NCBI GenBank assembly: GCA_010093995.1
Contig: ML992506.1
Span: forward strand, 913,196 to 977,195
Origin: Elsinoe ampelina
Taxonomy: Eukaryota
Length of the DNA: 64,000 nucleotides
Direction of reading: 5' to 3'
The notes below the pieces were generated by a model. It was not told the DNA's origin, did no database searches, and was given only the letters and a program-made list of their open reading frames with translations. Positions 1 through 57,715 of the stretch are shown here, piece after piece. Every line of letters starts with the position of its first letter. Positions within the stretch are counted from its first letter, which is position 1. Both the position numbers and the translations under genes were made by a program.

Positions 1-1157
1 ACGATGAGGTCCTGCAGTCCATGAGCCACTACAGGTATGGTCGATAGCTTATAATCTATGTCGGCCAATCTCTGACCATCTACAGCGAGTCCCATGTCGG
101 CATGCCCTTTGTCAAATGCTTTGGCGAGACTCTCACTATGCTCCGGACACTCTTCCAAACCTCGGATCCAGCATCACAGCCGATCGTCGTCTCCGGCTCT
201 GGCACACTAGGGTGGGACATGGTAGCATCCAACCTCGCAGAGCCAGGCGACGACGTCCTTGTCCTACACACCGGCTACTTCGCCGACTCCTTCGCCGACT
301 GCTTCGAGGCATACGGCGTCAAGGCCACACAACTCAAAGCTCCCATCGGCGACCGTCCACAACTCGACGAGATCGAAAAGGCCCTGAAAGAGAAGAAATA
401 CAAGCTCCTCACCGTCACCCACACCGACACCTCCACCGGCGTCCTTTCCGAGATCGAGCCCCTCTCCAAGCTCCTCCAACGCGTCTCCCCCGACACTCTT
501 CTCATCGTCGACGGCGTCTGCTCCGTCGGCTGTGAAGAAATCCGCTTCGACGACTGGAAAATCGACTGCGTCATCACAGCCAGCCAAAAAGCCATCGGCT
601 GCCCGGCAGGCCTCAGCATCTCCATGGTATCCGGCCGCGCCATCTCGTCCTTCAAAGCCCGAAAGCAGCCCCCCAACAGCTACTTTGCGTCGTGGAAGAA
701 CTGGATCCCCATCATGCAAAACTACGAAGCCAAAAAACCCAGCTACTTCGCCACCCCATCCCCACAACTCATCCACGCCCTCCACACCACCCTCAAGCAA
801 ATCACCGCCCGGCCCATGGACGAGCGCTTCAAGGTCCACCGCGACGCGAGCCTGCGCGTGAAGAAAGCCGTCGCGGACCTGGGGCTGAAGCAGTTGGCGA
901 GCAAGCCAGAGAACCAAGCCAACGGTATGACGGCGATCTACCTGCCCGAAGGCGTGACCCCGCCCGAGATTCTCCCGAAGCTGATGGAGCGAGGAGTGAT
1001 TTTTGCAGGTGGTCTGCACAAGGAGATTGCGGCCAAGTATATCCGGTTCGGGCATATGGGGGTGAGCGTCACGGATCCGAAGAGGGGGGATATTGAGGGC
1101 GCGATAAAGGCGCTGGGGGAGAGTGTGGTGGAGGTGAGGAAGGCGAAAGGGGAGTAG
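1..1157 (+). CDS. AGX1: Alanine--glyoxylate aminotransferase (class V PLP aminotransferase), 5'-partial; intron 35-85
   Basis: Motifs GSGTLGWD, THTDTSTGV, IVDGVCS and PLP-lysine ASQKAIG, plus YFATP and IRFGHMG. GTATGG..CTGAC..TACAG intron joins DEVLQSMSHYS to ESHVGMPF. Confidence 0.92.
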
Positions 1158-1749
1158 GATAGACCCAGGGAGGGGACGGGGAGGGTTGTATATATGTCAA
1201 GGGAATGTAAAAGCTCTTTGTTGATCACTCTCTTGTTGTCCCACGGGGAGGAAGGAACAGGATGTGGTTCAGAATCTACGAGGCAGTCAAGCGGCGTTCG
1301 TGTGGTGCAAGTGGCAACGATGCCCGAGACAAGGTAGAAGTTGCGCTGCGCCGACTGGCACTACCACTGCACCCAGCCTGCATGGCTCATGGCAGACTCG
1401 TTGCTTCGAAGAGGCATCGACGGAGCACATCACCGAACTTCTTGCACGTATGACTGTAATCATTTTCATTACCATCCGTCCCCTGGTAGAGTCTTGGACC
1501 CCTCCTGGCCTCTTGCCATGCTCACTCCCCCACCCACTCACCCATCTCCCCTCCGTCCATCTCCTCCCGACCTATACCAACTCCGATCTGTACATACATT
1601 ACATACCAAACCCGTATATGTGCATCCCTGCGTTTCCATCCCTGGTGTGCATCCCTGCCTATGCCGCCCTATATCCCTATATATGCTGTGACGAGCCGAG
1701 GTGATCGTTGCTGCGTTGCTGTGTAGAAGAAGTTGTAAGAAAGGTTTTG

Positions 1750-1797
1750 AAGTCCTAAAGTCCTCAAGTCCTCAAGTCCTCAAGTCCTCAAGTCCTG
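1750..1797. repeat. Tandem repeat (AAGTCCTC)x6, first and last copies imperfect
   Basis: aagtccta aagtcctc x4 aagtcctg, read directly. Confidence 0.9.
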
Positions 1798-1971
1798 AAA
1801 AGGTCCGGGAGAAAGGCCGGAAACAAAGTTCCAGAAGAAAGAAGAGGTATAATACAGGTCCCGCCTGTCCGTCGCCACCGCTTGGAAACGAATCCTTTAT
1901 GTGCAATCCACCATCCCATCCACCTCCCTCACCCGCATCACTCCATCACGGAATGATGACTGCAGTTCAGA

Positions 1972-4202
1972 TCACCGCCCGATATCCCACTTCGGCTTCA
2001 AACTACTCGCCAAATCCGTCTGCGTCCCCACCTCGCCCGTCGGTAACCTACTCATCCGGTACGCGCCCTGTCTGATCGCATTGCGCTGCACGGCCGAGAG
2101 TCCGGAGCGGTTGGAGCGGATGCTCCCCGCGTCGCTTGCGGAGTCGGCGCGGTCGCGGAAGCGAGGTGGTGGTGCGAAATCGAGGGCTGTGAAGGTGCCG
2201 GATTTGCGGAGTGCGTGGCTGGGACGGTGTTAGATCAGGGGACAGGAGAAGGGACGGGGAAGGGGAAAAGGTAAGGCTTACGGGGATGGCATCACGGCGA
2301 GGTCGTCGAAGCTGTGGCCTAGGGGTGTGTGGGCGCGGAAGGCAGGGGAGTAAGGGCGGGGAGTACCGAGGGGGCTGTCAGGGGCGCGGCCGAGACCGTG
2401 GTCGCGGAAGGTGGAGGGAGGGGCGAATTCGAGGATCGAGGTGTCGTCGCGGAGGAGATGGGGGGTCGGGAGTGACTGGAGCACTTTCGGTGGTGGTAGC
2501 TTCTTCTTGGGCTGCATCATTGGTCGGCGGCCGGCAGATTGGGTGGACATGACGCTGCGGTGACCGCGCATGAAGTGGCCTGGTGCTCGTGGAGGAGGCG
2601 TCATGGCACGGCGGTTGATGGGCTCGGCGAAGGGTTGGTGGGGTGGTTGCTGGTTGGGATTGGTGTAGAATGCACCAGTATCGGGATCGTAGACTGCGCC
2701 GTCCTCGAGGAAGTCGCCATAGTAGTCCTCCTCTCCACCGTAGCCGTAGGGATCGTGAGCTACTGGCATGGGAGGATAATGGCCGACGGGATTGGGTTTC
2801 GAGTCGTCAAAATATTCGCGGTAGAATGAACGAATGCGGTTGGCACGCTGTTCGGGATCGTCGGTGGGATCATCAGGGGGAAGCGGCCTCATGCCCATGA
2901 CTGATACGCGACGCATGTCGTTGCCGGGAAGTGCAAGATGGTTCTCATGAGGATCCGAGTTGTGCTTGGGGACTGGTGGTGGGGGAATGTCAAAGTCGTG
3001 TTGCTCGTGTCTTTCTTGTTGCACCGGCTCAACGGGTGGTGCAGGTAGCGGGTTTGGAGATCGTGGCGGGCTGTATGGATTGTGAGCGGGAGATGGAACC
3101 GTGATTCTCAAAGCGTCCGGTCCAGGGTAGATGTTATCGTTTTCTTGAGAAATGAAAGGTCGTTTCTCCTCGTATTCGGGTACTGGTGATGGCTGGTTGT
3201 ATCTGGCAGGCTGAGGGAAAGCAGGGATGCCAGTCTTCTCAGATAACATATCTTGAGGAGCCTGCGCCGGAATGTTGGAAAGATCTGGTGGTGACTCTGA
3301 GCCATACTTGGGGTCATCGGCGGGATACCAGCGATCTGACTTGCCATTGACAAGACTTTGCTTTCTCGGAGGTCGTACGACTGGCTTCTCATCATAGTTG
3401 TTGAATTTCTCCGAGTACATGTCAGGAGTGCTGTTGTAGGAGTCGTGAGGCATACGGGCAGCATTCTGCAAGAGGCTAGCCTTGTGGGTGACAGAGCCAG
3501 ACCGGTCGCTGTAGTTGCCAGTCGTGTTGGTTGTGTAGATGGAGCCATTCTCATTTCGGAGTCTGCTGGGCGACCTGAAAGAAGCATGATCGGAGACGAA
3601 CGTGACTGGGCGGTATGGATCGTTGGGATCATTCATGCCTCGCGACATGGAATGAAGTGAGTCCCGAGAGCCATGAACACCCGCTGGCAGGAGATACGGA
3701 TTGTGCATATCCAGGTCCATAGACATGCCGCGGTTGCGACGCATGCTCGAAGGTCCAGTGTTGATTGTCATCTCTGGCTTGCCTTTCTTGCCCTTCTTGG
3801 TCGTGCCACTCACGACATCGAGTCCAAAGTCGAGAGACTTGTGCTTGTCATGTAGGTCTTCTTGCCTTTGTTTTCGCTTAATCCGTCTGTGGAGGAAGAA
3901 CAGAACTACTATTGCAACGAGGATAGGAATACTAGATCCTGTCAGTAGAGCCCAAAGCAGTCCATGTGTGGATCTTACGCAGCAGCCAGGGCGATTGTCA
4001 GCTTTCCAGTACCTCCAGAGTCTGTGGGTAGTGGACATGGCGATTTCCTGTCCTCACCACATGTGTCTTGAGGATTCGCGGCGCGCCTGACTATCGTTGG
4101 CGGCTTGTTGATTGTCTGTGTTCCCAGTATGGTCGAATCGACTTTAACATCTCTGTGAAGATGTGCGTGGTGAAGCACGCTATGCGCTGCTCGTGACTTC
4201 AT
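1972..4202 (-). CDS. Uncharacterised single-pass membrane protein with long Pro-rich cytoplasmic tail; introns 3932-3978 and 2219-2281
   Basis: ATG 4202 (MKSRAAH). Canonical introns join TIALAAA to IPILVAIVVLFFLHRR (TM plus basic stop-transfer) and AVMPSP to HALRKSGTFTALDFAPPPRF...KPKWDIGR*. Main exon is the 586-aa ORF. Confidence 0.8.
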
Positions 4203-6860: not shown

Positions 6861-8713
6861 TCAACCTGACTCCATGCTTACAATAGAAGCACAAACCTCG
6901 TTAGCCTATGATGATGGAATCATTTGGAACGTAAGGTATGTGGCTTTGATCAGAAAATCAGGTGCTTATAGCATGTAGCGGTCTGACCTCCTGGGATGAG
7001 CTATATTGTCCAATGTCAACGTAGGTGCTGGTGACCAGTTGCACATCGCTCAACGCTTCGTTAAATCACGATCGATGAAGTCGAAGTGCAAGCCGTATTC
7101 ACACATTACAAGACATGATGAAAGTGCTAGTGAGTATTTTGCTATTCGGAAGCCTAGACCGTCCGAAGCTATTCCTGAGGGAGAGGTTGATTGGCTTCAT
7201 CCATAACCAAGCTGGACAAGTGTTATGGGAGCTCGGAGGAGAGGTGCAGTATGCGACAGCGTCAACAGAAGCGACACAGATTATTTCCAGAGCTTTCGAA
7301 AACCCCTCTAGATTAACCAGGAGTTCATGTACTTATTTTTTAGCAAGTTAGAGCAAATCGTCGAGATGCAATCCTGACCAAACCAAGCCTCCGCATACAG
7401 CTTCGCAGCGCGCAGAGCCGCAAAACATGTGACTTGAAGCCCTCACGCAGCAGTAGCAGCGATAGCAGAGTGTGTGAGACGAAGATTCTTTCCCACCTTC
7501 ATCTCAGAAGCAGGAAACAGTATTTCATCAAAAACAGCGGAGCGCGCTGTGTTTCCATCACCAATTCCATCGATGTAGGTCGGGTCGAGCACGTGGAGAT
7601 GGTCGAGACTGACTTCAGGACAGCGCCGCGAGCCGCCGCCCGGCCCAGAATGAGCACCGAATCGATTTTGGCTCTATTGAGCCTACTGGCAATGACTCTG
7701 GGAGCACCTATTGGTTGGTTGATCAAGAGGGGAGATTGAAAAGAGAAGAAATGGTGAGGTGGAATACAATTTTAGAGGTCGAAGAAGGGTTCTGAGATGG
7801 ATTTAGCAATGAGGGTACACTATTTTGAGCTAGAGGGATGACCGAAAAGGGAAAGCTCGTCAAGCCACAATGCGAAAGCAGCGATCTTTTACTTCATTAA
7901 GAATATGGTCAGCATCCACATCTTAAAGACCCGCCAATCACATCTCGCCACATCAATAATGTCGCTCATATGGCGTGTCTGCTCTGGTGCCTGAGGCACA
8001 AGGCTTGAGATGAGAGTGCTTCAATCTTTGCCTGAGGATTTGCCTGAGAGGCAGTCGCTATACACGACAAGGGAAAATCGGACCGTCTACACGCAATCGT
8101 GAATGAAGACAATCACCGCAGGCACTTGTCTGAAAACATCAGAACGGTCTGATCCTCTGCCTTCAGTCATTGTCAACCTGCAAGTATCAAAGCGAACAGA
8201 GCCGTCACGCTCCTAACCATGAAAAAGAGGGCCATCGCAACTCGATATCCAAGACTGCGGCTGTCAGCCCCGCCAGCTGGAATGTCGTGAAACGAGACTT
8301 CGTCCAACTTCGCCAGCATGCTTGATCAAGCGGCACTGCTTCGTGGGCCATCATGTATGTTCCATTGTTCATGAGTAGCGACCGAGGTTTGCGGATCATG
8401 AGCTGCAAAGCATGATCGAGCCCAAGTCCAAAATGCGAAGGCAAACGAGGAGTCAAACGATTTGATGATCGTGAGAATCTACGTAAAGCAGCACTCTTGC
8501 AAGTGGATCTGCTGGACTAGAAGGGTATCAAACCTACCACCCACCGCGCGTCCGTCCCATACCCGTAAGCGTCCTTTTACCATAGGTATCCATGCACCGT
8601 AACCCAACAGCATCTATGCTGCTTTACCCCCCCAACCCTCTCCAAACGCCCAGTAAACAACCCACTTATATACAATGCAACCACCCCATCAAACCCCTCT
8701 CCCCTCCACAAAA

Positions 8714-11216
8714 TCAATCATCAGCCGCCCCCCTCCCCATCTCCATCCTGAGCCCGACAGAAACACTCTGCTTCCTCCTCCTCATCATCCCCCTAGTCCC
8801 ACTAAGATCAAAATCAACCACACTCTTACTCCTCCGCCTCAACGACTTGACCGGCTGTTGCTCCTGCTTGATCGCCCCATGAAACAACCTCTTATACTTC
8901 AGTTCCGGACTACTCGGCCTCCCACCCTGCGTCCCCTCCAGCATCCCCTGGATCGGCGTATCGGGCTTGATCATTGGCGTGAAGGCAAAGGCACGGGCGT
9001 GCGCGCTCGGCGTCGCGGGCTGGGACGCCCAGGGGAAGAGCACGGCCGAGGGCCAGAGGGTAGCGGGCGGTGAAGGAGGGGAGCGTTCTTCGGAATCAGA
9101 GCTGCTTTCGTCGTCAGAGAGGTGCCAGCGGTCGTTGATCTCGTCGGATGAGTCCGTGGCGTCGCTGTCGGAGAAGGAGTGGAGGTCTTCGTAGCCGGGG
9201 AGTTTTTGGCTGTCTTTGGTCGCGGAGAGGCTGCCTTTCGAGGGGCCGATGGAGAAGTGGATGTCGCGGGGGGCGCGGGGAGGGGCGCGAAGGCTGAGGC
9301 GAGGGAGATCGAGGCTGGTGCGGAGGGTGCGGTAGTGTGGGCGGCGGTTGTTTTGGCGGTATTTTTGGGCGGACATGGTGAGGGGGTAGCCGAGTGTCAT
9401 TAGGGTGTGCTGGTCTAGCTGCTCGGGACCGAAAGCCACGCAGGTCATGAGTTGGTGGACGGCGTCGTCGATGGCAAGCTCGATGGCGCAGTGATTGCGG
9501 ATTTCCGACAACTTTGGCCATGTTGCCTTTTCACCACTGAGAGTGGCCGCAACCATGAACGCAGTGTCAGGGTTGCTGAGAACATAGGGAAATTCGGCGT
9601 AGGAGATCTTAGGGAAGATGGTAATGTCACCAGCGTAGCGTTGCCCGACGACTGATCGGATCTTTGAAAGCACATTCGGCAAGACTCCAAATTCTTGGAG
9701 TACTTGAAGTCTGTGCATCGCTTCATCTCTGGCGACAGTCGTCAGGGTTTGCGTCCAGGTAGATCGCGTCGTGTGACTGGTCTCCTCTCGTCTCGCCTCT
9801 TTGGCCATGTCCTTCTCGTCCTTTTCCAAGAATGGTACAACGTGAGGGTTCACTTGTGAAACGATAAAGTGGTTCACATTGAACATTTCCGACAAACGCT
9901 GCATCGGAATATCATTCTCCACCGACCCATCAATCCACTGCTGTCGAGACTGATTCCATGGGACCTCTTCGCCGGTTCTAGGGTCTTTGGCCAGAAGCTG
10001 TCCAGGGGAGAAGACAAAGGGAACAGAGCAGGATGCCGCCACCGCAGACCAGATCAGGACGTTTGGCGCTGTAACGTAGTTGAGAAGCCTAGGGAGTTCA
10101 TAAAGGCTGGCGGTTGATACGCAAATATTGAGAATGCGTCTAGTCTTGTTGTATGCTTCTTGAAATGTCATGTCCCCAAGTAGTTCCTTCATCACGGAAA
10201 CCAGATTGCCGATGTCGAACAGACTGCCTTTGGTCAGGAAGCGGAATGCTTTGCCTACAAGGCTCGTTTCCTGTCCAGCCTTTTCGAAGACCTGCAAGTT
10301 TCCGTAGCAGAATTCTTTGAGGACGTTTGGAATCTCATCATCGGTCTTTGTGCACATGACCGATGACACAATACTGCCAGCTGAGGCTCCAGATATGATG
10401 CGAGGAAGGAGGTTGGCTTCGAAGAGACATTTGATGACACCAATGTGGTTCATACCAAAGGTGCCACCTCCGGACAGAAGTAAAGCACTTCGTCCAAATG
10501 CTTGACGGGCCAGTAACAACTCCTGAAGTACGATCGAAGGTTCTAGTGGTCCAGTACCATTCTTTGTGATATCCGTAAGCGCGTCCACAGTATCCAGTAC
10601 AGACTCGATGTATCGTTCAATCAAAGCCTTTGTCCCAACCCGAGAATGCTTGTATAGACGTAGACTCCCCATATTACCGAGGTTCCGTGTAAGACCTGTC
10701 CTTACCAGCATCATGATCTTCTTTTGATCGCGACTGATTCGAATGTCATCCATCTCGTTGAGTCGCGCCTTTACTAGATCAACATCGTATTCGGAGCATT
10801 CTTCCTCCAACTTCCACCCATCATGACCTTCCAGCGCATCCAGTTCTGTCGCGGCTGAAAGCCATTCTGAGTAGCCTTGTGCCTTTACAATGTCAGCGGA
10901 AGTCTTGGTAACGTACAAAGACAGGCCATACCTGGTCCAGCTTGACCCTCAAGACTTGTATCCGGTATCCTATATTCTCCGGTCTTTCGTTTGTAGGGTT
11001 TGGCGGCGTCTCCGGATCGGCATGTATCGCGGCATCCTCTACTGGGTCTCTAGACGTTCGAAGAAGGCGACGCAGGGGACTGAAGAGTCCAGCAGGCGCC
11101 TGACTGACAGTAGTCGCAGTCGCGTCGGTAGTCACGGAATCACTCCTGGAGTGCCCTGTTGTTATGCCTCGACCCAGTGTGCCGGGCAGGGCAAAGACAT
11201 CATGGAGCATATCCAT
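8714..11216 (-). CDS. TGL4: Patatin-domain triacylglycerol lipase (TGL4/TGL5-like); intron 10883-10931
   Basis: Oxyanion GGGTFG, nucleophile GASAG, catalytic DGS, plus HFIVSQVNPH and an N-terminal DUF3336-like region. Exon 1 (MDMLHDV...KLDQ) is spliced via GTATGG..CTGAC..AAG. Confidence 0.88.
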
Positions 11217-16333: not shown

Positions 16334-16494
16334 GTGGAGGCGTGAGTGGGCTGATGGTGCGAGGGGATTTTATATTTGGGTTTTGGGCTGGCGTTTCTCG
16401 TTCGCGCGGAGGTCGGGTCTGACGTTACAAGGATGGGATATACCCTTGGACTTTGCGATCGTTGATACATTAATTCTCAATACATTTCCAACTC

Positions 16495-19630: not shown

Positions 19631-19685
19631 CACTCATGTCCAGTATCCCGGGTCTCATGTCGCATCCCCATCTCAGGAGAGAATC

Positions 19686-36800: not shown

Positions 36801-37061
36801 GGTGTGTGTGAGGCTGAGAAGATAGTCTTGTGTAGAGTGTTTAGTGTAAATGTGGTGTAACGCTGAAAGCTGAGAACTGAGGAGGGGTAAAGATTTGATA
36901 GCGGGGCTGGAGCTGCGGGCGGTGTCTAGCTGCGGACGGGGAGGTTTCACATCAGCTTGGGTGGCACGTGCTTTGATCCAGTACACATGCAATGCAATTC
37001 ATAATCATGATCTCGTCTATGTGAAAAGAATATAATCAGGATCCGAGAGCCAGTCTCCACC

Positions 37062-40023: not shown

Positions 40024-40231
40024 ATACCCATGTATACAGATGAAGACTAGTTATTTGCTCGTGTCACATGCCTAAATGCGGCCCGAGCAACCGCGCAGAC
40101 CGACGTCATGCTTTACTTTTTTCCTACTCCGTCTTGAGCTCTCATCACGCCGTCAACCCAAACGGTCGGTCTCTCCTCGACCTTCTTCACGCCCTGCTCC
40201 GCGATACACTTCTGACCTATATATCGACAAC

Positions 40232-41428: not shown

Positions 41429-41880
41429 TCCCCCACTCCAGTGACTCACCCAACGGCGATTTGGCTGATTTTGGCTGGAGTTGGTAGGGTTTACACATGA
41501 CAAGAAGGCAGCAGCAAAGGCGCGATTGGAACGCAAGCATCATGGATGGGTGAAAAGGGGGAAGCACCAATCAACGACAGCATCTCTACTCAGGAATATA
41601 ACAAGCGGTGAGCGACTGCGGCTCGGCGCAGCGGTAGCGAGGCGTTCGGCAATACAGGTGGGAGGGATAAATATGTATCGAAGCACTTTTACGTTCATTC
41701 TCCGCTCGCTATGCTACCCTGTGCTATTTCCATCCTACAGAACAGTAGTTCGCAATGCCAAATATCCCTCATGGCCGCGTTTTGTGCTTGATATAAAAGC
41801 AATTCACATTGCCATCAGCGGTTTGCTGTTATCCCTGCCAAATGCCATGCCTGAACTTCGTGTTGATCATGGCGACGCAG

Positions 41881-44862
41881 CTAAGAAAGCATACCCTCCA
41901 TGTCGCTGCTGCCACCGATGCCGCTATCCCTGACTGCCCTCCTGGTCTTCTTGACCCTCTTCTTCTCCACGACCCTGACAGCGGGGCTAACACTGCTGTG
42001 GCCGATACCGTTGACAGCAGCTTCTTCCTCCTCGACCTCCATGACGTCTTCTAGCAACCTCTTGCCCTCCCTCTTCAGCTCCCCTTCCCCATCCTTCGCC
42101 AGCTTGGCCAATCTGTCCACCTCTGCGCTCAAAGTACCGATCTTGTGAGTGGCCTTTGCAACATACTCCTCAAACTTCTCCCTCAACTCCCTATTCTTCT
42201 CCCTAAGAGCGTCGTAGTTCTCCTCACGTGTCTCGGCTGAAGTCTCCAGTGTCTCGATGTAGCTGTTCTTCTCAGTGACGGTGGCGTTCCATGCCGTGTC
42301 CACTTCGCGAGCACGCTCTTGCAAGTCCTCAATCTCGGCTTGCTTCGTACCGATAATGTCCTTGAGAGAGGCGACTTGTGCTTCCTTCTCGGCAGTATAT
42401 GTGAGCATTGTGATTGCTTCATGCTCGACACGGCTCTCGAGGGAGGCCTTTTCACCTTGGAGCACAGAAATTGCAGAGTCTGCGACTTCGGCATCGTGTT
42501 TCAGGGCGTCAATGCTGGCGTCGCGGTCGGCGAGAGTGGCAAGCATCTGCTCCTGCTGGGTGGAAGCTTGATGGCGGACAGTGTTGAGATCCGTGCTTGT
42601 CTTGTTCAGAGTCGATGTGAGATCGCCAATGGTGGTCTCGAGTGTCTTGATCTGGCTGGACGTGGACTGTTGAAGAGCATTGTGCTCTGCAGTCTTGATA
42701 CCAAGTGCAGTCTGCAATTCCTCAACCTCTTCCTCAAGTTTGACACATCGATCTTCCATTTGCTGAAGAAGCGCTTCCTTTTCGTCGAATGTCTTGCGCA
42801 TATCGGCCTCGAGGTTGGCGAGCTTCGATTCTAGATCGTCGATGTATGACTGGCGCTCAGCGGCAACGTTTTCGGCGTCCTCACGGCGTGATGTTTCGGC
42901 GGAGAGGTCGGCTTCATACTGCTCAGTACGTTCGGCCATGGTAGTCTGGTATTCCTTGATGGTCTTGTGATCACGTTGCTGCACCTCGAAGAGCTTCTGG
43001 CGTAGTTCATTGGCTTCGACACCTTGCTTGTGAAGTTTGTCGTTGAGAGATTTGACCTTCACATGTGTGTCGTCGAGCTCGGCCTCGGCCGCTTCCCGCT
43101 GACGCTTCTCCGCTTCGTGAAGCTTCTGGAGATCCGCATAGTCGTCCTCGAGCTTAGCAAGGTCGGCCTCAGCTTTCTCAAGCTGCTTCTGAAGATCGAT
43201 AATGGTAGAAGCTTTCGTGGCTGCGTCATCTTCAGCGGATTCCTTGCCTGCCTGGACATCGACAATGTCCGCGCGGAGGCCCTCGATCTCAGCTTTGAGC
43301 TTGCTGATCATGGCAGCCTCCTTCTCCAAGCTCTTGGACAAGTCTGCAGCAGCCTTCTCGACACTGGTAGCGCGACCCTCGGCGGCGACACGGGCTTCCT
43401 TCTCAATACGGACCTCCTCTGTGAAGCGATGATGCTCAGTCTCGTGGTGATCCTTGAGCGCGGCAAGAGTAGCGGCGTGGTCATGCTCCATTCGCCTGAT
43501 GAGGTCGTGCAGATTTGCTTCTGTCTGTCGATAACCGTCTAGAGCGGTCTTGAGCTTTTCGCAGCTGTCGTCCAGGACACTATTCTCGCTCTCGAGGGTT
43601 TGAGCCTGACTGACCTTCTCCGTGAGCAGCTTGCTAACCTGCTTGAAGTTCTTCTCCACGTCGAGGAGCTTGGTCTCCAACTCCTTAATGTATCTATCAT
43701 CCTCTTCGTTCTGATTGTCGAACTCGCCATTTGCCTGCTCGAGCCTGTTGCGGATCAGGTTCGCCTCGGCTAGCTTGTCGATGAGAACATCAATCTGAGT
43801 GAGGAGCTCTTGCTCAAAGGACTTCTGCTCAGTGATGATAGTGTCCTTCTTGTTGTTGCTGTGAGCATAGGCCACGAGTTGGTCGGCAATGCGCATGAGA
43901 AGTGTCTGCTCCTGAACGTCGGCAGCAACGTCGAATGGCAGTATGTCTCGCAGGCGGTGACGAACATGGTCGAAAGATGCGCGGATGGAATCGATGACAG
44001 CTTGGGCGTTGGCATCGGGACTACCGAAACCCATGCTTGACAATTCGACAATGAGGATCTCGAGCGAGGACTTGGCCTCGGCGGCTTCACGTGCCAGACG
44101 CTTGATTGAAGCTTCGTAATTGGCGCGCTCTTGGTCTGACTTGATGGGGACGGAGTCGAAGTCGGTGAGACTGTCGGCACGCTCGCTGGAGGGGCTTTGT
44201 ACCTCGATATCAGGTGGCTGAGAAGGACCGTCGACATTACCATAGACCAAAATATCCGTCTCGTGTTGGCTCATCTCGATATCGTCGGATCCGTCCAGCT
44301 GGCTCATGGTCTGAGATTCGAGGCGTTGCTTCATCCTTTCCTGGACAAGCTTGTTGAGTGACACCATGCCAGCCTCGAAACGAGCAGGAGAGAGGTGTTG
44401 AAGGGCCAGAGAGGCAGGCATCGACTTTCTCGGCTTGGACTTTTTCTGGGACTGTGACTGGGATTGGGATAGTGCATCTTCTTGGCTGAAAGCGGGGAGG
44501 GTCGCACGGCGAGAGGTAGTGGTCTTTGTGGTGACCTGTGAGAGTTGTGAATTGTTGACTTGAGAGGTCTGAAAGGCATCGGCGGCAGGCTGGCTGCTGT
44601 CCTCGCGGATTGGTGAAAGTTCTGGGTGATCGACTTCTCCCTGACTATGAGCGACTTCCTTGACGACAACTTTTGTCTTCTTTCTCTTCTTGATGGCAGG
44701 CTGAGAGTCGAGTTGGGAAGAATCGTCGACGGCACCGCTCTCGGCGTGTGAAACGCTGCTGGCACGTCTCTTGCGGTTGTTTGATCGTGGGAGTTGCTGC
44801 TGAGAAGACTGTGAAGCTTCAGGCTCCACTGATTCGGCTCGCTCCTGAGCTCTGGTCTTCAT
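41881..44862 (-). CDS. Large coiled-coil protein (~993 aa) with SQ-rich basic N-terminus
   Basis: Intronless ORF from ATG 44862 (MKTRAQ). About 700 aa of E/K/L/Q heptad-like sequence, NLS-like KKRKK, and C-terminal KKRVKKTRR..RDSGIG. Confidence 0.88.
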   Translation of the reverse strand: MKTRAQERAESVEPEASQSSQQQLPRSNNRKRRASSVSHAESGAVDDSSQLDSQPAIKKRKKTKVVVKEVAHSQGEVDHPELSPIREDSSQPAADAFQTSQVNNSQLSQVTTKTTTSRRATLPAFSQEDALSQSQSQSQKKSKPRKSMPASLALQHLSPARFEAGMVSLNKLVQERMKQRLESQTMSQLDGSDDIEMSQHETDILVYGNVDGPSQPPDIEVQSPSSERADSLTDFDSVPIKSDQERANYEASIKRLAREAAEAKSSLEILIVELSSMGFGSPDANAQAVIDSIRASFDHVRHRLRDILPFDVAADVQEQTLLMRIADQLVAYAHSNNKKDTIITEQKSFEQELLTQIDVLIDKLAEANLIRNRLEQANGEFDNQNEEDDRYIKELETKLLDVEKNFKQVSKLLTEKVSQAQTLESENSVLDDSCEKLKTALDGYRQTEANLHDLIRRMEHDHAATLAALKDHHETEHHRFTEEVRIEKEARVAAEGRATSVEKAAADLSKSLEKEAAMISKLKAEIEGLRADIVDVQAGKESAEDDAATKASTIIDLQKQLEKAEADLAKLEDDYADLQKLHEAEKRQREAAEAELDDTHVKVKSLNDKLHKQGVEANELRQKLFEVQQRDHKTIKEYQTTMAERTEQYEADLSAETSRREDAENVAAERQSYIDDLESKLANLEADMRKTFDEKEALLQQMEDRCVKLEEEVEELQTALGIKTAEHNALQQSTSSQIKTLETTIGDLTSTLNKTSTDLNTVRHQASTQQEQMLATLADRDASIDALKHDAEVADSAISVLQGEKASLESRVEHEAITMLTYTAEKEAQVASLKDIIGTKQAEIEDLQERAREVDTAWNATVTEKNSYIETLETSAETREENYDALREKNRELREKFEEYVAKATHKIGTLSAEVDRLAKLAKDGEGELKREGKRLLEDVMEVEEEEAAVNGIGHSSVSPAVRVVEKKRVKKTRRAVRDSGIGGSSDMEGMLS

Positions 44863-46199: not shown

Positions 46200-47940
46200 A
46201 TGCAAGACGGCGATGATCAAGCTTCGACGTTGCTCGGCCTGCCGACAGAGTTGATGCTGCATTGCATCTCGTATCTTCCACCTCTCGACCTAGCAAGAGC
46301 TTCACGGACATGTCGCACCCTACAAAAATCAGCCGCCACCGACTCGCTATGGCAAAGACATGTCAACGCCAATCTACCAACGCCACTGTCATCCCCCGCA
46401 CCTCTGAGCAGTTTCAGGGAACTATACGTCGCTCATCATGCTTACTGGTTCCTCCCACGTCAGCAAATATGGATCTCAGACTCGGAGCCTTGTGGCCAGC
46501 TGGTAGTAGCACGCTATAATCCTACCAAGGCTAGCATCGAAGCACACGCCGTCGTCGCCGAAAGGGGTGAGCACACTGTTTCGGCATGGTCGGAAAACAA
46601 TCAGGTCTTGATCCATGGCTTTGACCCTAATGTTCAATTACATCTCGATCGGCCTATATTGAAGCTCACCACTGGTGGTCGTCGAGTGTCAATATCTCAA
46701 TCAAGTCCGAGAGGACCATTGAGTAGCTTCTGGTCCTCCGAATCATCTCCGAGGGAAACTCCACTACTATCGCAAGAGATACTCATGGACTGTGCACATA
46801 CAAATTCCCCAGCCGGTGTCAGGACTTCCTTTGTATTATCACGAGATCTTCCCGGTTATCTCATCAACGAGGGCTCTGCTGTATGGCCGCCTCTTTCGAT
46901 CCCTGCACCCTCTCGCGCTCGCAATCTCTCTGGCTCCGACTTCTCATCGATATCACATCGACCCTCCAAGCACAATGAGATATCACAGAACACGTTTCGG
47001 ATACGAAGATGGATGGAATACGCCAACCGAAGAAATAGCTCTAACCTCGCACAATTCCCTGGTCTAGATCGATTATCGGTCGCTCCTGGTTTGAGTTTCT
47101 TCGCCTCCTCCGCAAGCGGATACAATCTCGACCGTCGAGGAGAAAACGTGACTACCTTTGGCGCCATCGACCCTGCTGCATACACCCCTACACCACGTAA
47201 ACCCTGGCGCGGAATCTACTGCGGCGACTACTCAGGTCATGGCTGCGAATTCCTCCTCGTGCTCCAACCGGACGAAGGCACCGAAGATCCCCTCCCCGAA
47301 GGCCTCAACTGGCTCAACGAATGGCTCACCGGCGATCGCCCACGCACCATCGACAATCAAAATGATATCACCGCCCGTACCTACAATCGCATGAATGAAA
47401 TCCTGACCGACATGGCCGAACGCGACGGCTTCCGCCACCGCGCCAACGCCTTTGACGATGACGATGAAAGGGACGAGCCCAGTGACGATGACGACGACGA
47501 CTGGGAGGAACCCGAAGGCGTACGCGGCGAACTCCAACGCCAGACCAGCACGGCCGCCGACTCAGCGATGGAGACTGAAGACATCTACTCCGGCCGTCTT
47601 GTAGCCATCAAGTTGACCGGCGACCCCCACGTCCCGCGAGGACAAATCACCTTCATCGCCCCTGATCTCGGGGAGAAAGGACTCGTGCGCACGGCAGAGG
47701 AGGACATTTTCCGAGGAGCAAGGGTTGTGCGAAGCGCAGGACACGTCGCTAACCGCGGGTTTATCCATGGTTTGTCTTCCCGGGTGAGAGACTAGGGGAG
47801 TAAGCTAACGAGATGCAGACGAGTACATCCCTTCGCAGCTCATTCTGGTGTCGCACGATCGGTTGGCGCAGTATTGGCAGGGGTTTGGGCATATATCATT
47901 CTACAAGCGGGTGGATTTGGATGCTTTGATGCGGTCGTAG
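46200..47940 (+). CDS. F-box protein, FBXO31-like; intron 47770-47818
   Basis: F-box LLGLPTELMLHCISYLPP.DL...SRTCR. WRGIYCGDYSGHGCEF and KLTGDPHVPRG blocks. Last exon DEYIPSQLILVSHDRLAQYW..GHISFYKRVD. Confidence 0.88.
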
Positions 47941-48396
47941 GGTGAGCATAGCAGGGGGGATGGCATCGGGCGAATGCAGCGACAGTCTTTTCACACAGCG
48001 AGGCGCGAGATACGCATCCACGGCGTTGTCGGGTTGGGGTACGGACAGCCCGGGAAGGGAAGTGATTGGACACGTTTCGGTAGCATAGCCTGGTAATGGG
48101 AGGTGTTTGTCTGGGATCTAGTATTTACATTTCTCATCTCTGTTCTCCTGAGAGGTCCTTTCATCAGGCATGATGTTTCTGCATCCTTTACCCACCGCGG
48201 TGCCGTCCAACCCGCGCTGATCCCCTGCTCCACCCAGCCGTGCCGTCTTCCCGTCTGCAGTGGTGATCAAGGCTTAGCAAAGCTTGGGAGGGGAGATCAC
48301 CGCCCCGCTTCGGAGGCGGAGGGGAGACTAGAGGGTGATCTATTTGTCTAGCATGGTCGATCTTCTGGTCGCATTTCGAAATGTTCCATTGGCGAT

Positions 48397-54509: not shown

Positions 54510-55719
54510 ATGTCCGACATGGCAGATCAAGCAGACATCATGGCGGACGCAAGCATCATGCTCGACGGCGGAGTTGTACTCCAGCTTGAGAATTTTATCA
54601 ACACGCTTCGTGACATGTCAGCTGCCCTCCTCGCCGTTTGTGTGGTGACGGCGGCGCTGCGCATGTTCGTGCGGATAAAGATCTTGGGCCACTTCGGCAT
54701 GGATGATGGGTTCATGCTTGGAGCATTGGTTCGTCCCTTGCACCTACCAACACAGACGTATTCTGATCATTACTCTTAGAGTCTATTCATCGTTCTCGTT
54801 TCACTGACCTACGTCGGTACGGGATATGAGTGGGATTTCTTCCACGGACACGCCGTTGCCGTGAGCAAAATAGTAATGGTAGAGGTGATCCTGGCTGCTA
54901 CAATCAAACGAGTTCTGACTGACACAGATTCAGGTTGCTCAATGGTTGAACGCCACATACATCGCTACTGCAGTTACCATCAAGATCTCACTGGCCATCT
55001 TCATGCTTCGCATTTTTGGCCCACACGACAAGTGGCAACGCTTCCTCACCTACAGTGTAACCGGTGTTTCCACTGTCTTGGGCATCATATTCTTCGCCAT
55101 GAACTTCACCTGCGTCGTAAGCTACGAGTCTCACGACAGCGAAGGTCGTTGCAACCTCATCACCGAGTTCAAGATCCTCTCCCTCGCTTGGTCCGTCTCG
55201 AACACCCTCGTCGATTTCACCTTCGCCTTCCTCTGCATGGCTCTCATCTGGGCAGCCAACCTCCGTAAAAGGGCAAAGGCAATCACCAGCGCTCTTCTCC
55301 TCTTCGGCTCCGTTGGTGCCGTGGCTTCCATCCTCCGTATCATCGCCGTCAATAAGTCCGGTCTGCAGGACGACAACCTGCAGCGCCTGGAGGTCCGCTT
55401 CTGGTCTAACATGGAAGCCGGCATCTGTATCTCTGCAGCTTGTCTCAGCTCGCTCCGACCGCTCCTCAAGTCTTGCATGGAGCGCACCAAGATCTCGGGC
55501 TACTACTACCGTCGTTACGGGCAGACGACCAAAGCAACTGGAGCTCGTGGTACCAACAACAGAGGCACGAACCACGGCACTATGCTTGGTAATCCGGACG
55601 AGATTACGACTGCGGTCCCAAAGGAGGGTGGCATCAACATGACTACGAGTATCGCTGTTGAGCACTCGGAGAAACAGCCACCTGCCTTTATCACCGAGGT
55701 CGGAGAGGACATGGTTTAG
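54510..55719 (+). CDS. PTH11-like (rhodopsin-domain) 7TM protein without CFEM; introns 54729-54779 and 54861(or 54879)-54933
   Basis: LRMFVR...FGMDDGFML, KISLAIFMLRIF, N.LVDF, ASILRI and WSNMEAGICISAACLSSLRPL. The start could be a slightly later ATG. Confidence 0.85.
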
Positions 55720-56482
55720 ATGTCACTGTGATTCATCTGCCCCTTCGATCCCTTACATTCCTTTCTTGTACTGTATCACTTCGATCTGGTCGATCCTGGT
55801 TGGTTGGTTTGTGAGGTTGTGATACCCAAGTACGAGGTGGTGGTTTGTGCACCGTGGACAGAGGTCTAGGAGAATTAGGAGAACCAGTATCACTCTGGAC
55901 CAGGCGACTTGCTTGAATAGAAGGCCCTATCCAGCTTATTGAATGTTGTCTAATTTCCTCAAACGTCAGCAATATGAGCTCTTGCGGTCGGCAAACCTGC
56001 CCGATCCCACGCGCAGGACAACCCAAATGTCCATCCGCCAGTATCGACATGTTTCGGCTTTCCCTATTGAGGCATCCGACAAGCCCCTCCCCCACGTCCC
56101 AGTCTCTGGAGAATGGACGCGGGGCAGCACACTCTCTGATGTCTTGAGGACTCACTACAACGCGTCACTTTGACTCGGAATAGCTTGTCGGCGTCTCTGC
56201 AAAAGAGGCATTCCGGTCTACACTGCAGCATTGACTTTGACCTCATCGCAGCTCAAGATACATCAATTCGTACTCCTCTCTGAGCGCTTTTCCTTCGCTG
56301 CAATTCATTGACCTACCTACTGGATAGTCTGCTTCTTCTGACACAGCGTGACGAGTCAATTGCTACACAAGCACCGTGTAGCAACAGCACAGCATAGCGT
56401 CACAATACATTTGAGATCTGCCATACAGCACATCAGCCTATTCATCCACACCCCTCCCGCAGCGACATCGCCTCTCACCACC

Positions 56483-57539
56483 ATGCGTCCCCTTACCCGC
56501 CTCCCTTCTCCCCTCCGCCCCTCCCTCCTCCCACGCCTCCTCCCCCTCCCCGCACAAACCCGCCACCTCTCCGACGTCCGCAACCCCCCCCTCGGCAACC
56601 CCCCCTCCACCAACCGCCAACCCCCCTCCCCTCCCGCCGAAGAAGCCCCCACGCTCCGCACCAACACCACCCCCGCCTCCTTCCTCGGCACCACCAAGCG
56701 CCTCCCCGAATTCAACCTCCACGACCGCGTCATCCTCGTGACCGGCGCCGCCCGCGGCCTCGGCCTAACCCAAGCCGAAGCCCTCCTCGAAGCGGGCGCC
56801 ACAGTCTACGCGCTCGACCGCCTCGCGGACCCCGCGCCGGAATTCGCCACCATCCAACGCCGCGCCGCGGACGAGTTGGGCACGACGCTGCACTACCGCC
56901 AGATCGACGTGCGGGACGTGCCGGACCTGAACCGCATCGTGAGGGAGATCAGCGATGCCGAAGGGCGCATGGATGGGTTGTTGGCCGCGGCGGGGATTCA
57001 GCAGGAGACGGCCGCGTTGGAGTATTCCCAGAAAGACGCCAATACCATGTTTGAGATTAATGTGGTCGGGGTGCTCATGACGGCGCAGGCGGTGGCGAAG
57101 GAGTGTATCCGCCATGGGAGGGGGGGGAGTATGTGTTTTATTGCGAGTATGAGTGGGAGTGTGGCGAATAAGGTATGTTGAAGGACTTCCTGCGTGGGAT
57201 AGCGGGGAGGAGCTAATGGGGTGGCAGGGGTTGATTTGTCCCGTGTATAATTCGAGTAAGGCTGCGGTCGTACAGTTGGGGAAGAATCTGGCGGCCGAGT
57301 GGGGCCCGTATGGGATTAGGGTGAACACGATCAGTCCGGGATATATTGTGACCAAGATGGTGGAGGCGTTGTTCGAGCAGTATCCGGAGCGAAAGGAGAC
57401 GTGGCCGACGCAGAATATGCTGGGCAGGCTGAGTGGGCCGAGGGAGTACAGGGGTGCGGCGGTCTACATGCTGAGTGATGCGAGTAGTTTCATGACGGGG
57501 ACGGATGTGAAGATTGACGGAGGTCATACAGCTTGGTAG
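56483..57539 (+). CDS. Short-chain dehydrogenase/reductase (D-arabinitol dehydrogenase / sorbose reductase-like) with mitochondrial-type presequence; intron 57173-57227
   Basis: TGAARGLG, IASMSG, YNSSK, IRVNTISPG and IDGGHTAW. R/L/P/S-rich N-terminus. Confidence 0.9.
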
Positions 57540-57715
57540 TTTGTATTCCTGAGGGTAATTTAGCGTGGAGCTTGGGTGTATAAAATGCCACATGGACATG
57601 AGCAAGTGTCTAGAGTGTTTGAGTGGTGATTAAGATATTCCCTCGGGGCTGTTCTCGTATATACATGTGTCTCATCAAGACATTGGTCCTGGCAGGACCT
57701 TCGTTGCAAAGCTTG

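What the first reader, a model, noticed from the sequence alone, without database searches (positions are those of the whole stretch)
160..57540. Recurrent strand-symmetric C-rich to G-rich skew inversions, independent of gene orientation
Seen: on the + strand, several hundred bp of very C-rich sequence flip abruptly to very G-rich sequence. By eye the flips are at about 860, 2080, 8980, 16150, 21000, 26510, 27530, 30070, 36350, 41300, 47660 and 56900. The polarity is always C then G, a pattern that is its own reverse complement. It occurs in + genes (AGX1, arrestin, tannase, SPC105, SDR), in - genes (TGL4, nudC) and between genes. It rewrites third codon positions and introns alike (poly-C nudC intron, G-rich SDR intron), so protein-level selection does not explain it. 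Established: a C-to-G skew jump is the signature of bidirectional asymmetric processes such as replication initiation. Inference: these nodes are mutational footprints of fixed origins or break/resection hotspots, or mark R-loop/G4-linked termination zones. Most lie in the 3' part of genes.
Basis: partly seen in the sequence, partly recalled or inferred. Interest (0 to 1): 0.72.

Follow-up and report, generated by a model that had tools for sequence, protein, structure and literature searches.

The report
Fungal gene-end C-to-G skew switch
The C-rich-then-G-rich flips are real, but they mark the last few hundred bases of individual genes in a fungus, a strand bias already described across fungi, and not replication origins or break hotspots.

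Summary
The skew blocks are real. They are not free of gene orientation. Read along each coding strand, every module is a C-rich block followed by a G-rich block. This pattern is its own reverse complement. 14 of 17 flips lie -500..+150 nt from a stop codon, where 26% is expected. Spliced RNA contigs end at or near the far edge of G blocks. G-to-C jumps are nearly as common and as sharp (8 versus 11 at 0.6 or more) and sit just past stop codons. The switch holds at four-fold sites: G:C is 122:347 before the flip and 214:85 after it. Introns and 3' UTRs follow it too. This matches McLean & Tirosh 2011, who found fungal coding strands C-biased in the body and G-biased at the 3' end. The window is an Elsinoe-like Dothideomycete with a strong version. 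The cause is unknown. In this window the switch is stronger at convergent gene ends, but a cross-species check did not repeat that. Earlier scan notes report similar gene-anchored sawtooth skews in a CPR bacterium and a giant phage; I did not check them.

The parts
400..1343 (+). AGX1 (alanine-glyoxylate aminotransferase) 3' module. C block about 400-976, flip at 976, G block 976-1343. Stop codon ends at 1157.
   Evidence: Pfam Aminotran_5. Jump 0.72. Four-fold G:C 17:27 before the flip and 20:3 after it. The G-to-C jump at 1343 lies 186 nt past the stop.
1343..3800 (-). Unnamed 591-aa ORF (2278-4053, minus strand). On its coding strand, C-rich body 2139-3800, flip at 2139 (139 nt past the stop), G-rich downstream stretch 1343-2139.
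   Evidence: No convincing + strand ORF in 1160-2270, so the stretch is probably UTR or intergenic. No transcript data here.
8525..9600 (-). TGL4-like patatin lipase 3' module. On the coding strand, C block 9600-8948, flip at 8948 (234 nt before the stop at 8714), G block 8948-8525.
   Evidence: Pfam DUF3336 + Patatin. Jump 0.96. Four-fold G:C 14:32 then 20:3 in one ORF. No ORF of 131 aa or more within about 800 nt downstream.
15400..16400 (+). LDB19-type arrestin 3' module. C block to 16121, then G block. Stop codon ends at 16333.
   Evidence: Jump 0.66. Four-fold G:C 12:26 then 25:6.
16495..17100 (-). Fungal transcription factor gene 3' end. Weak or marginal flip at 16737, 242 nt before its stop at 16495. 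Only 162 nt separate its stop from the arrestin stop.
   Evidence: The jump of 0.51 is inside the shuffle extreme range.
20400..21513 (+). Tannase/feruloyl esterase 3' module. C block 20400-21104, flip at 21104 inside the conserved Tannase domain, G block 21104-21513. Stop codon ends at 21419. RNA contigs end at 21536-21542.
   Evidence: The Pfam Tannase match covers ORF residues 115-594. Unspliced RNA contigs cover 19576-21542. Four-fold G:C 11:34 then 31:3. GC3 skew of the last 67 codons is +1.0.
26080..27091 (+). SPC105/KNL1 kinetochore gene 3' module. C block 26080-26505 includes the last intron 26197-26246 (skew -0.63). Flip at 26505, G block 26505-27091. Stop codon ends at 26914.
   Evidence: Jump 1.06. 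Four-fold G:C 10:50 then 46:13.
27091..27957 (-). Unnamed 279-aa gene (spliced, minus strand). On the coding strand, C block 27957-27575 includes the last intron 27916-27963 (skew -0.57). Flip at 27575, G block 27575-27099. Contigs of all four runs end at 27098-27101.
   Evidence: CT..AC joints; contig ends in 4 runs from 3 studies.. Jump 0.85.
29400..30417 (+). Unnamed 212-aa gene. C block to 30075, flip 9 nt before the stop, and a G block that is entirely 3' UTR or downstream (30085-30420, skew +0.55).
30417..31100 (-). Aspartyl-tRNA synthetase-like gene 3' end. Moderate G block 30813-30451 on the coding strand, flip at 30813.
   Evidence: Pfam tRNA-synt_2. Contig ends at 30451 and 30515. 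Jump 0.51, marginal.
34900..35979 (+). ANTH-domain gene 3' module. C block to 35588, G block 35588-35979. Stop codon ends at 35736. Contigs end at 36066-36106.
   Evidence: Jump 0.56, marginal.
35979..36966 (-). nudC 3' module. On the coding strand, C block 36966-36315 includes the C-rich low-complexity repeat 36523-36565. Flip at 36315, G block 36315-35979. Stop at 36132.
   Evidence: Pfam CS domain. Jump 1.05. Four-fold G:C 12:38 then 10:1. Tandem repeat.
40064..41675 (+). Duc1-domain gene. The whole gene is C-rich (40064-41321). Flip 112 nt past the stop, then a weak G block 41321-41675.
   Evidence: Jump 0.89.
41675..42800 (-). Unnamed 1088-aa ORF 3' end. G block 42336-41675 on the coding strand, marginal flip at 42336.
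   Evidence: Jump 0.53.
46600..48200 (+). F-box gene 3' end. Weak flip near 47660-47670.
   Evidence: jump 0.44, within the shuffle range..
56399..57653 (+). Short-chain dehydrogenase gene. C block 56399-56866 covers the 5' UTR and a Pro/Ser/Thr-rich N-terminal extension (GC up to 0.70). Flip at 56866. The G block 56866-57653 covers the rest of this short gene and its intron.
   Evidence: The Pfam adh_short match starts at ORF residue 129. Translation. Jump 0.80. G-to-C jump at 57653.

Best explanation
The 'nodes' are the 3'-end part of a strand-composition pattern tied to transcription units, already described in fungi. Along the coding strand of a gene, C exceeds G from the 5' UTR through the body and is often strongest in the few hundred nt before the switch. 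G then exceeds C over the last roughly 350-500 nt, through the stop codon and into the 3' UTR, ending near the transcript 3' end. A C-block-then-G-block unit reads the same after reverse complementation, so + and - genes look alike on the + strand. Where two genes converge, two units abut and produce C-to-G, G-to-C, C-to-G. Shown here: the anchoring to stop codons and transcript ends, and the effect on four-fold sites, introns and UTRs. Inferred: the pattern is produced at the nucleotide level by a process coupled to the phase of RNA polymerase II transcription, with late elongation/termination differing from initiation/elongation. My preferred cause is a phase-specific asymmetry of mutation or repair between the template and non-template strands, which is the first hypothesis of McLean & Tirosh. 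The mechanism is not established by any data here.
For: (1) Stop-anchored metagene of 25 genes, each read on its own strand. Mean GC skew is -0.13 to -0.22 from -900 to -300 nt, with only 2-9 of 25 genes positive. It is +0.22 in the last 100 nt of the CDS (20 of 25 positive) and +0.12 in the first 100 nt after the stop. (2) 14 of 17 C-to-G jumps lie -500..+150 nt from a stop, against 26% expected (p = 2e-6). (3) Spliced RNA contigs (11 introns with GT..AG or CT..AC joints) end at 21536-21542, 27098-27101 (4 runs, 3 studies), 30451 and 36066-36106. The G-to-C jumps are at 21513, 27091, 30417 and 35979. The flips therefore lie about 360-480 nt upstream of contig ends. (4) Neutral sites. In 12 genes, four-fold G:C is 122:347 in the 100 codons before the flip and 214:85 from the flip to the stop. 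Tannase goes from 11:34 to 31:3 inside its Pfam domain. Two introns inside C blocks have skew -0.63 and -0.57, and 5 of 7 3' UTRs are G-skewed. (5) Amino-acid usage shifts as the codons predict: Thr/Pro/Ser/His fall to 0.42-0.53x and Gly/Val/Met/Lys/Glu/Arg rise to 1.8-3.2x. (6) Gene-oriented AT skew stays positive and does not flip at the node. (7) The start-anchored metagene shows C bias from about -100 nt (mean -0.17, 16 of 23 genes negative). (8) All of these features are reported by McLean & Tirosh 2011 for 64 fungal species, Dothideomycetes included. [quoted passage not shown]
Against: The paper describes averaged, gradual trends with the strongest C bias at the promoter. Here single genes show abrupt switches of amplitude up to 1.06. 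In long genes (TGL4, SPC105, TF) the C block sits just before the switch and the mid-gene is near zero. Not all genes show the pattern: RPS11, IsoDH, IMS polymerase, WD40 and the ORF ending at 12507 have jumps of 0.16-0.43. Node selection by maximal skew makes the four-fold Fisher test partly circular. Against a simple deamination origin: inside the blocks G and C trade places while A and T barely change, and GC content rises from 0.55 to 0.60. Transitions alone do not predict that. Part of the AGX1 flip is encoded by the conserved protein. In 30 orthologues, codon positions 1+2 go from -0.28 to +0.24 while mean GC3 skew goes only from -0.08 to -0.02. Transcript ends rest on contig ends, which the tool rates a weak hint, and exist for only about 5 genes. 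No genome is held, so genome-wide generality is untested.
Confidence: 0.85

Rival explanations
1. Selected 3'-end module. The G-rich terminal block, perhaps together with the C-rich block before it, is kept by selection because it slows or terminates RNA polymerase II through R-loops or G-quadruplexes on the non-template strand. This would insulate tightly packed, mostly convergent genes from each other.
For: In this window the switch is stronger at convergent 3' ends: median maximal jump 0.65 (n=18) against 0.29 at tandem ends (n=7), one-sided Mann-Whitney p = 0.0005. Stop-to-stop distances of convergent pairs are only 162-1121 nt (coordinates). The deepest run's contigs bridge two convergent pairs. 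There are 14 G4-type motifs against about 2 in shuffles, and 10 of them lie on the coding strand inside terminal G blocks. GC content rises in the blocks and G and C swap without A/T change, which is awkward for transition bias. In human genes, co-oriented terminal GC skew goes with R-loops and close neighbours (Ginno 2013; abstract and one Results section read).
Against: Seven tandem genes is a small sample, and TGL4 has a strong switch (0.96) with no ORF within about 800 nt downstream. Across 29 AGX1 orthologue loci, crude neighbour orientation made no difference: 0.52 (n=7) against 0.47 (n=11), p = 0.46. The G block lies upstream of the transcript end and inside the mature mRNA. Downstream of the poly(A) site of a convergent gene the sense strand is C-rich. 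Human terminal skew instead starts at the termination site, decays downstream, and favours tandem pairs. G4 motif excess follows from composition. No R-loop data exist here.
Confidence: 0.25
2. Imprint of the convergent neighbour. Each gene's G block would really be the termination (read-through) zone of the gene on the other strand, carrying that gene's C bias past its poly(A) site.
For: Strong switches are concentrated at convergent pairs. G blocks abut the neighbour's contig end, for example 27091 against 27099. Contigs of one run bridge convergent pairs.
Against: In 5 of 7 tandem genes the 600 nt past the stop show no C bias: HAD, the ORF ending at 12507, the ORF ending at 52915, rhodopsin and WD40. 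In the other 2 the C-rich DNA is the next gene's own body. For both partners of a pair, the other gene's read-through would have to outweigh the gene's own transcription, and that cannot hold for both at equal effect per polymerase (inference). TGL4 has a strong G block without a nearby convergent ORF.
Confidence: 0.08
3. The nodes are mutational footprints of fixed replication origins or of meiotic/mitotic break-and-resection hotspots.
For: C-to-G polarity on the + strand is the polarity of origin-type skew jumps (established knowledge). GC content peaks at the nodes, as GC-biased gene conversion at hotspots could produce.
Against: There is about one node per gene (17 in 64 kb), and each skew reverts within 300-700 nt instead of persisting over a replicon. 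14 of 17 nodes are tied to stop codons, and block edges lie 8-127 nt from RNA contig ends. Sharp G-to-C jumps are nearly as frequent, 8 against 11 at 0.6 or more. For resection, 5'-to-3' resection exposes the 3'-ended strand, so cytosine deamination would give G-rich then C-rich on the + strand, the opposite polarity. That last point is my inference from the known resection polarity and was not tested.
Confidence: 0.03
4. RNA or DNA hairpin or palindrome. The C block and the G block would be complementary arms of a selected long stem.
For: Composition alone gives very stable folds, -136 to -156 kcal/mol for 400 nt.
Against: For 8 nodes the MFE is no lower than after shuffling each arm separately: z = -2.1 to +1.1, with 4 of 8 above zero. 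Only short low-complexity inverted matches of 16-26 nt were found.
Confidence: 0.02
5. Protein-level or translational codon selection alone. C-ending optimal codons would fill the body and a different amino-acid content would mark C-termini.
For: In AGX1 orthologues the flip at codon positions 1+2 is conserved, -0.28 to +0.24 in 30 loci. Filamentous fungi generally prefer C-ending codons; this is recalled and no call here tested it.
Against: Introns and UTRs follow the local block. The four-fold G:C ratio reverses within single ORFs, including inside the conserved tannase domain.
Confidence: 0.04

Closest known systems
Opposite GC skews at the 5' and 3' ends of fungal genes (McLean & Tirosh 2011, BMC Genomics 12:638, PMC3315797). 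[quoted passage not shown]
   Same: The coding strand is C-biased from the 5' UTR through the body and G-biased around the stop codon and into the 3' UTR. The bias is present at four-fold sites and outside coding sequence. It shifts amino-acid usage. AT skew is uniform and positive. All were tested here. Their data set includes the Dothideomycetes Stagonospora and Pyrenophora.
   Different: They report species averages and gradual ramps, with the strongest C bias at promoters. Here single genes show abrupt switches (jump up to 1.06). A C block peaks just before the switch even in long genes. G-block edges lie near transcript ends. In this window there is an apparent excess at convergent gene pairs. 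Elsinoe was not in their species list. Strong jumps are about 2.7 times denser here than in 31 other fungal loci (1.41 against 0.52 per 10 kb).
Terminal GC skew and 3' R-loops of human genes (Ginno et al. 2013, Genome Res 23:1590, PMC3787257)
   Same: G exceeds C on the non-template strand, co-oriented with transcription, at gene 3' ends. It is linked to closely spaced genes and proposed to aid termination.
   Different: Human skew rises at the termination site and decays 1-2 kb downstream, and it favours tandem neighbours. Here the G block lies upstream of the transcript end, is preceded by a C block, and is stronger at convergent pairs. R-loops are not tested here.
Replication-origin skew jumps (bacterial oriC; 'upward jumps' at mammalian origins). 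Recalled; no paper was read for this.
   Same: C-to-G polarity on the reference strand.
   Different: The scale is hundreds of nt here, not tens to hundreds of kb. There is one node per gene, anchored to stop codons, and the skew reverts at once.
C-biased coding strand around transcription start sites in plants and fungi (Fujimori et al. 2005). I know it only as the prior work summarised in the abstract and background of PMC3315797; the paper itself was not read.
   Same: It explains the C block of the short dehydrogenase gene (56399-56866), which covers the 5' UTR and N-terminal codons, and the start-anchored C bias.
   Different: It does not cover the 3' G block or the C blocks just before the switch in long genes.

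Membership tests
Fungal gene-anchored GC-skew pattern (McLean & Tirosh 2011) | Coding strand C-biased at the 5' end and through most of the gene | tested here: met
   Start-anchored mean skew is -0.17 at -100..0 and -0.08 to -0.15 over the first 500 nt (23 genes). Stop-anchored skew is -0.13 to -0.22 from -900 to -300 (25 genes).
Fungal gene-anchored GC-skew pattern (McLean & Tirosh 2011) | Coding strand G-biased at the 3' end, strongest near the stop codon and extending into the 3' UTR | tested here: met
   Skew is +0.22 in the last 100 nt (20 of 25 genes positive) and +0.12 just after the stop. Five of 7 RNA-bounded 3' UTRs are G-skewed, up to +0.62.
Fungal gene-anchored GC-skew pattern (McLean & Tirosh 2011) | Present at four-fold degenerate sites and in non-coding parts, so not protein-driven | tested here: met
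   Four-fold G:C is 122:347 before the flip and 214:85 after it. Introns in C blocks have skew -0.63 and -0.57.
Fungal gene-anchored GC-skew pattern (McLean & Tirosh 2011) | Amino-acid usage differs along the gene in line with codon skew | tested here: met
   Thr, Pro, Ser and His are depleted and Gly, Val, Met, Lys, Glu and Arg are enriched after the flip.
Fungal gene-anchored GC-skew pattern (McLean & Tirosh 2011) | AT skew roughly uniform and positive along genes | tested here: met
   Gene-oriented AT skew is +0.07 to +0.20 through the body, shows no sign change at the node, and falls to about 0 after the stop.
Fungal gene-anchored GC-skew pattern (McLean & Tirosh 2011) | A genome-wide property of the species' genes | not testable with these tools
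   No whole genome is held for this window. Only about 26 genes could be examined.
R-loop-linked terminal GC skew (Ginno et al. 2013) | Positive GC skew co-oriented with transcription at the gene 3' end | tested here: met
R-loop-linked terminal GC skew (Ginno et al. 2013) | Skew rises at the termination site and extends 1-2 kb downstream | tested here: not met
   G blocks lie upstream of contig ends and stop there. The skew is negative from +200 to +600 past the stop.
R-loop-linked terminal GC skew (Ginno et al. 2013) | Enriched where the neighbouring gene is close | tested here: inconclusive
   Convergent against tandem in the window gives p = 0.0005. There was no effect across AGX1 orthologue loci, p = 0.46. 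In humans, tandem pairs dominate.
R-loop-linked terminal GC skew (Ginno et al. 2013) | RNA:DNA hybrids detected at the site | not testable with these tools
   This needs DRIP-seq or a similar assay.
Replication-origin skew jump | Skew of one sign persists from the origin over replicon-scale distance | tested here: not met
   Blocks are 300-700 nt long and revert with sharp G-to-C jumps.
Replication-origin skew jump | Position independent of gene ends | tested here: not met
   14 of 17 nodes lie within -500..+150 of a stop codon.
Replication-origin skew jump | Origin activity (ORC/MCM binding, OK-seq switch) | not testable with these tools
   No such maps are available.

The most novel reading that the evidence does not exclude
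In this compact genome the sharp C-block/G-block pair would be a selected, two-part 'end-of-gene' element, not a passive mutational trace. It would sit a roughly fixed 350-500 nt from the poly(A) site, be strongest where two genes run into each other, and stop or slow polymerases coming from either side. From either direction a polymerase meets C-rich and then G-rich non-template DNA. That would be a sequence-encoded bidirectional insulator written partly into coding sequence at synonymous sites.
Probability: 0.15. Interest if true: 0.65.

Novelty: new member of a known kind. Interest (0 to 1): 0.3.

Why it matters
The pattern shows that in this fungus a nucleotide-level force tied to the transcription unit overrides codon preference and even changes the amino-acid make-up of protein C-termini. 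An example is four-fold sites going from G:C 11:34 to 31:3 within one conserved enzyme domain. The cause of the fungal 5'/3' skew has stayed open since 2011. I found little follow-up in print: of the 4 papers that hold the paper's title phrase, one is the paper itself and three others hold the phrase. A species with an unusually sharp, strong version and public RNA data is a good place to test mutation bias against selection for termination. Practically, such blocks mislead ORF callers. Many spurious long ORFs appear on both strands inside blocks. The blocks also mimic origin or hotspot signatures.

Tried and rejected
Whole-genome analysis was not possible because no genome is held. Earlier notes on this genome: none exist. 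The look-up of sequencing runs listed no holder on record as RNA. Runs X3-X5 and X7 were labelled 'RNA?' as a guess. Their contigs carry canonical splice joints, so I treated them as transcript-derived. Parts without cover, and contig depths, were not used to rank genes or to infer silence. Hairpin/palindrome idea: rejected. Tandem repeats do not make up the blocks; only 13 short arrays exist, 3 of them inside blocks. A shuffle within 2-kb segments was a poor null, because segment borders create jumps (mean maximum 0.48), and I replaced it with whole-window shuffles. A + strand gene in 1160-2270 that would make node 2139 a plain convergent junction: no convincing ORF and no Pfam hit. A gene downstream of TGL4 in 6100-8700: none evident. 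Cross-species test of neighbour orientation on AGX1 loci: no effect, but the ORF-based neighbour calls are crude and lineages differ in skew strength. Ranking G-block strength by the neighbour's expression was not attempted, because contig depth cannot rank genes. Literature: 4 searches found no paper on this pattern in Elsinoe and no R-loop maps for filamentous fungi among the listings I looked at. Subscription journals are not covered.

Full report
OBSERVATION. Sliding-window profiles show repeated stretches of 300-700 nt with GC skew of -0.4 to -0.6 followed directly by stretches of +0.4 to +0.65. GC content peaks at 0.60-0.70 at the junctions. With 300-nt flanks I find 17 C-to-G jumps of 0.5 or more and 11 of 0.6 or more. 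In 200 whole-window shuffles the largest jump averaged 0.40 and never exceeded 0.59. The twelfth (47660) reaches only 0.44. The claim that the polarity is always C then G does not hold. There are 15 G-to-C jumps of 0.5 or more and 8 of 0.6 or more, up to 0.89. With 400-nt flanks the counts are 9 against 2 at 0.7 or more.

WHAT ORGANISM AND GENES. The window is eukaryotic, with short spliced introns. Its AGX1 protein is 99% and 98% identical to proteins named from Elsinoe ampelina and E. batatas and 90% identical to E. australis. It is therefore an Elsinoe-type Dothideomycete. Contigs of four public runs laid on 17001-37000 carry GT..AG or CT..AC joints at 11 introns. They are therefore transcript-derived, and they give gene structures and approximate transcript ends.

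THE PATTERN IS ANCHORED TO GENE ENDS. I read each of 25 genes on its own coding strand and aligned them at the stop codon. Mean skew is -0.13 to -0.22 between -900 and -300 nt, with only 2-9 of 25 genes positive. It turns to +0.22 in the last 100 nt of the CDS (20 of 25 positive) and stays positive just past the stop. That zone covers 26% of the window (p = 2e-6 and 5.5e-5). Seven of the 8 robust G-to-C jumps lie 94-189 nt past a stop codon, at the end of a 3' UTR or where two convergent genes meet. Contig ends are available for comparison with four of these jumps:
- tannase: contig ends 21536-21542, jump 21513
- the 279-aa minus-strand gene: contig ends 27098-27101 in four runs of three studies, jump 27091
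- Asp-tRNA synthetase: contig end 30451, jump 30417
- ANTH gene: contig ends 36066-36106, jump 35979
The flip then lies about 360-480 nt upstream of the contig end. The tool rates contig ends only as a weak hint of transcript ends.

The unit is therefore a C block, then a G block, then the poly(A) site, on the coding strand. The reverse complement of that unit is again C block then G block. This is why + and - genes look the same on the + strand. It is also why convergent pairs give the triplets C-to-G, G-to-C, C-to-G seen at 976/1343/2139, 26505/27091/27575, 30075/30417/30813, 35588/35979/36315 and 41321/41675/42336.

NOT PROTEIN-DRIVEN. In 12 genes with the flip inside one ORF, four-fold sites carry G:C = 122:347 in the 100 codons before the flip and 214:85 from the flip to the stop (Fisher p = 6e-36). 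The nodes were picked by skew, so the test is partly circular. The cleanest case is tannase. The flip at 21104 lies inside the Pfam Tannase match, on an unspliced RNA contig, and four-fold G:C goes from 11:34 to 31:3. GC3 skew of the last 67 codons is +1.0. Third positions overall go from 49% C and 20% G to 19% C and 52% G. Introns lying in C blocks are C-rich on the coding strand (-0.63 and -0.57), and 5 of 7 3' UTRs are G-skewed. Amino-acid usage follows: Thr/Pro/Ser/His fall and Gly/Val/Met/Lys/Glu/Arg rise after the flip. Gene-oriented AT skew stays mildly positive and does not flip. A milder C bias starts about 100 nt before the start codon. The strongest C block (56399-56866) is the 5' UTR plus a Pro/Ser/Thr-rich N-terminal extension of a short dehydrogenase gene, and the rest of that gene is G-rich.

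KNOWN PRECEDENT. McLean & Tirosh (2011, PMC3315797; Results, Discussion and Methods read) reported that in almost all of 64 fungal species the coding strand is C-biased at the 5' end and G-biased at the 3' end. [quoted passage not shown] They report the effect at four-fold sites, in promoters and in UTRs, together with shifted amino-acid usage and uniform positive AT skew. Every one of these features is met here (see the membership table). They proposed either mutation pressures specific to a transcription phase or C-avoidance related to CTP supply. Neither has been tested. Of the 4 papers that hold the paper's title phrase, one is the paper itself and three others hold the phrase. Human genes show a related terminal GC skew linked to R-loops and close neighbours. 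That skew starts at the termination site, decays downstream and favours tandem pairs (Ginno 2013; abstract and one section read).

WHAT IS PARTICULAR HERE. (a) Sharpness and amplitude. Strong jumps (0.7 or more) occur at 1.41 per 10 kb in the window against 0.52 per 10 kb in 31 other fungal loci totalling 174 kb, though a few of those loci match it. (b) In 30 collinear AGX1 orthologues the flip at codon positions 1+2 is conserved (-0.28 to +0.24), so part of that node is protein-encoded. The GC3 flip is lineage-specific: the window goes from -0.28 to +0.64 while the mean goes from -0.08 to -0.02, and about 8 loci are clearly positive. (c) In long genes the C block sits just before the switch while the mid-gene is near zero. 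(d) Within the window the switch is larger at convergent 3' ends (median 0.65, n=18) than at tandem ends (0.29, n=7; p = 0.0005). Against (d), TGL4 has a 0.96 jump with no ORF within about 800 nt downstream. A crude cross-species test on AGX1 loci also showed no effect of neighbour orientation (p = 0.46).

RIVALS.
- Origins or break hotspots: one node per gene, reversion within hundreds of nt and stop-codon anchoring argue against them. I also infer that deamination on resected 3' tails would give the opposite polarity.
- Neighbour read-through imprint: 5 of 7 tandem genes show no C bias past their stop. The model would also need each partner's read-through to outweigh the other's own transcription.
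- Hairpins: the MFE of 8 nodes is no lower than arm-wise shuffles (z = -2.1 to +1.1), and only short low-complexity inverted matches exist.
- Selected termination or insulation module: this is not excluded. G4-type motifs number 14 against about 2 expected, 10 of them on the coding strand of G blocks. GC content rises and G and C swap with little A/T change, which plain transition bias does not predict. On the other hand, the G block lies inside the mRNA, not downstream of the cleavage site.

VERDICT. It is the 3'-end part of a published, gene-anchored fungal strand bias, present here in a strong and sharp form. That it is tied to the transcription unit is shown. That it arises from a transcription-phase-specific mutation or repair asymmetry is my preferred inference, at about 45% against about 25% for selection on 3'-end function. 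Earlier notes of this scan describe similar gene-anchored sawtooth skews in a CPR bacterium and a giant phage and name the same paper as closest known. I did not check them.

Noticed in passing
window 6100-8500: A stretch of about 2.3 kb has lower GC (0.46-0.50), almost no skew, no ORF over 131 aa and no Pfam hit. It lies between the HAD-like gene and the TGL4 3' end. It may be gene-free or a non-coding transcript.
   Followed up: partly
window 19125-22207 and 29128-32463: In the deepest run (X3), single contigs bridge convergent gene pairs (tannase with the ribosomal protein gene; the 212-aa gene with Asp-tRNA synthetase). This suggests overlapping 3' ends or read-through. The other runs end between the genes.
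   Followed up: partly
window 27648 and 30330: Contigs of three runs (X4, X5, X7) leave the window sequence at these two places and run on for 255 unlike letters rich in G, T and A. Both places lie in skew blocks. The cause could be a strain difference, a repeat-driven assembly join or a second locus.
   Followed up: no
window 34061-34199: Run X7 joins 34125 to 34199 (GT..AG) where the other runs join 34061 to 34198. This is a possible alternative 5' splice site in the ANTH-domain gene.
   Followed up: no
window 20996 and 25850: There are only two single-base differences (C>A, A>G) between the window and runs X4, X5 and X7 over 20 kb. X7, although listed under another organism code, carries nearly identical sequence.
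   Followed up: no
window 36460-36566: A G-run/tandem repeat on the + strand (C-rich on the nudC coding strand) lies in frame inside the nudC ORF, where the CS-domain match has a gap of about 30 residues. Reads were cut there by the repeat filter.
   Followed up: partly
window 21657-23000 (minus strand): A small, three-exon ribosomal protein gene (163 aa; the uS17/RPS11 naming is from recall) shows almost no terminal skew switch, unlike its neighbours.
   Followed up: partly
window 48-1157 and proteins P0001-P0003: The Elsinoe AGX1 proteins are annotated at 443-444 aa, while most other orthologues listed are about 384-389 aa. This suggests an extension or a different start call in this genus.
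   Followed up: no
whole window: Skew blocks create many long spurious ORFs on both strands: 136 stop-to-stop ORFs of 120 aa or more in 64 kb, often 3-4 overlapping at a node. This could mislead gene callers.
   Followed up: no
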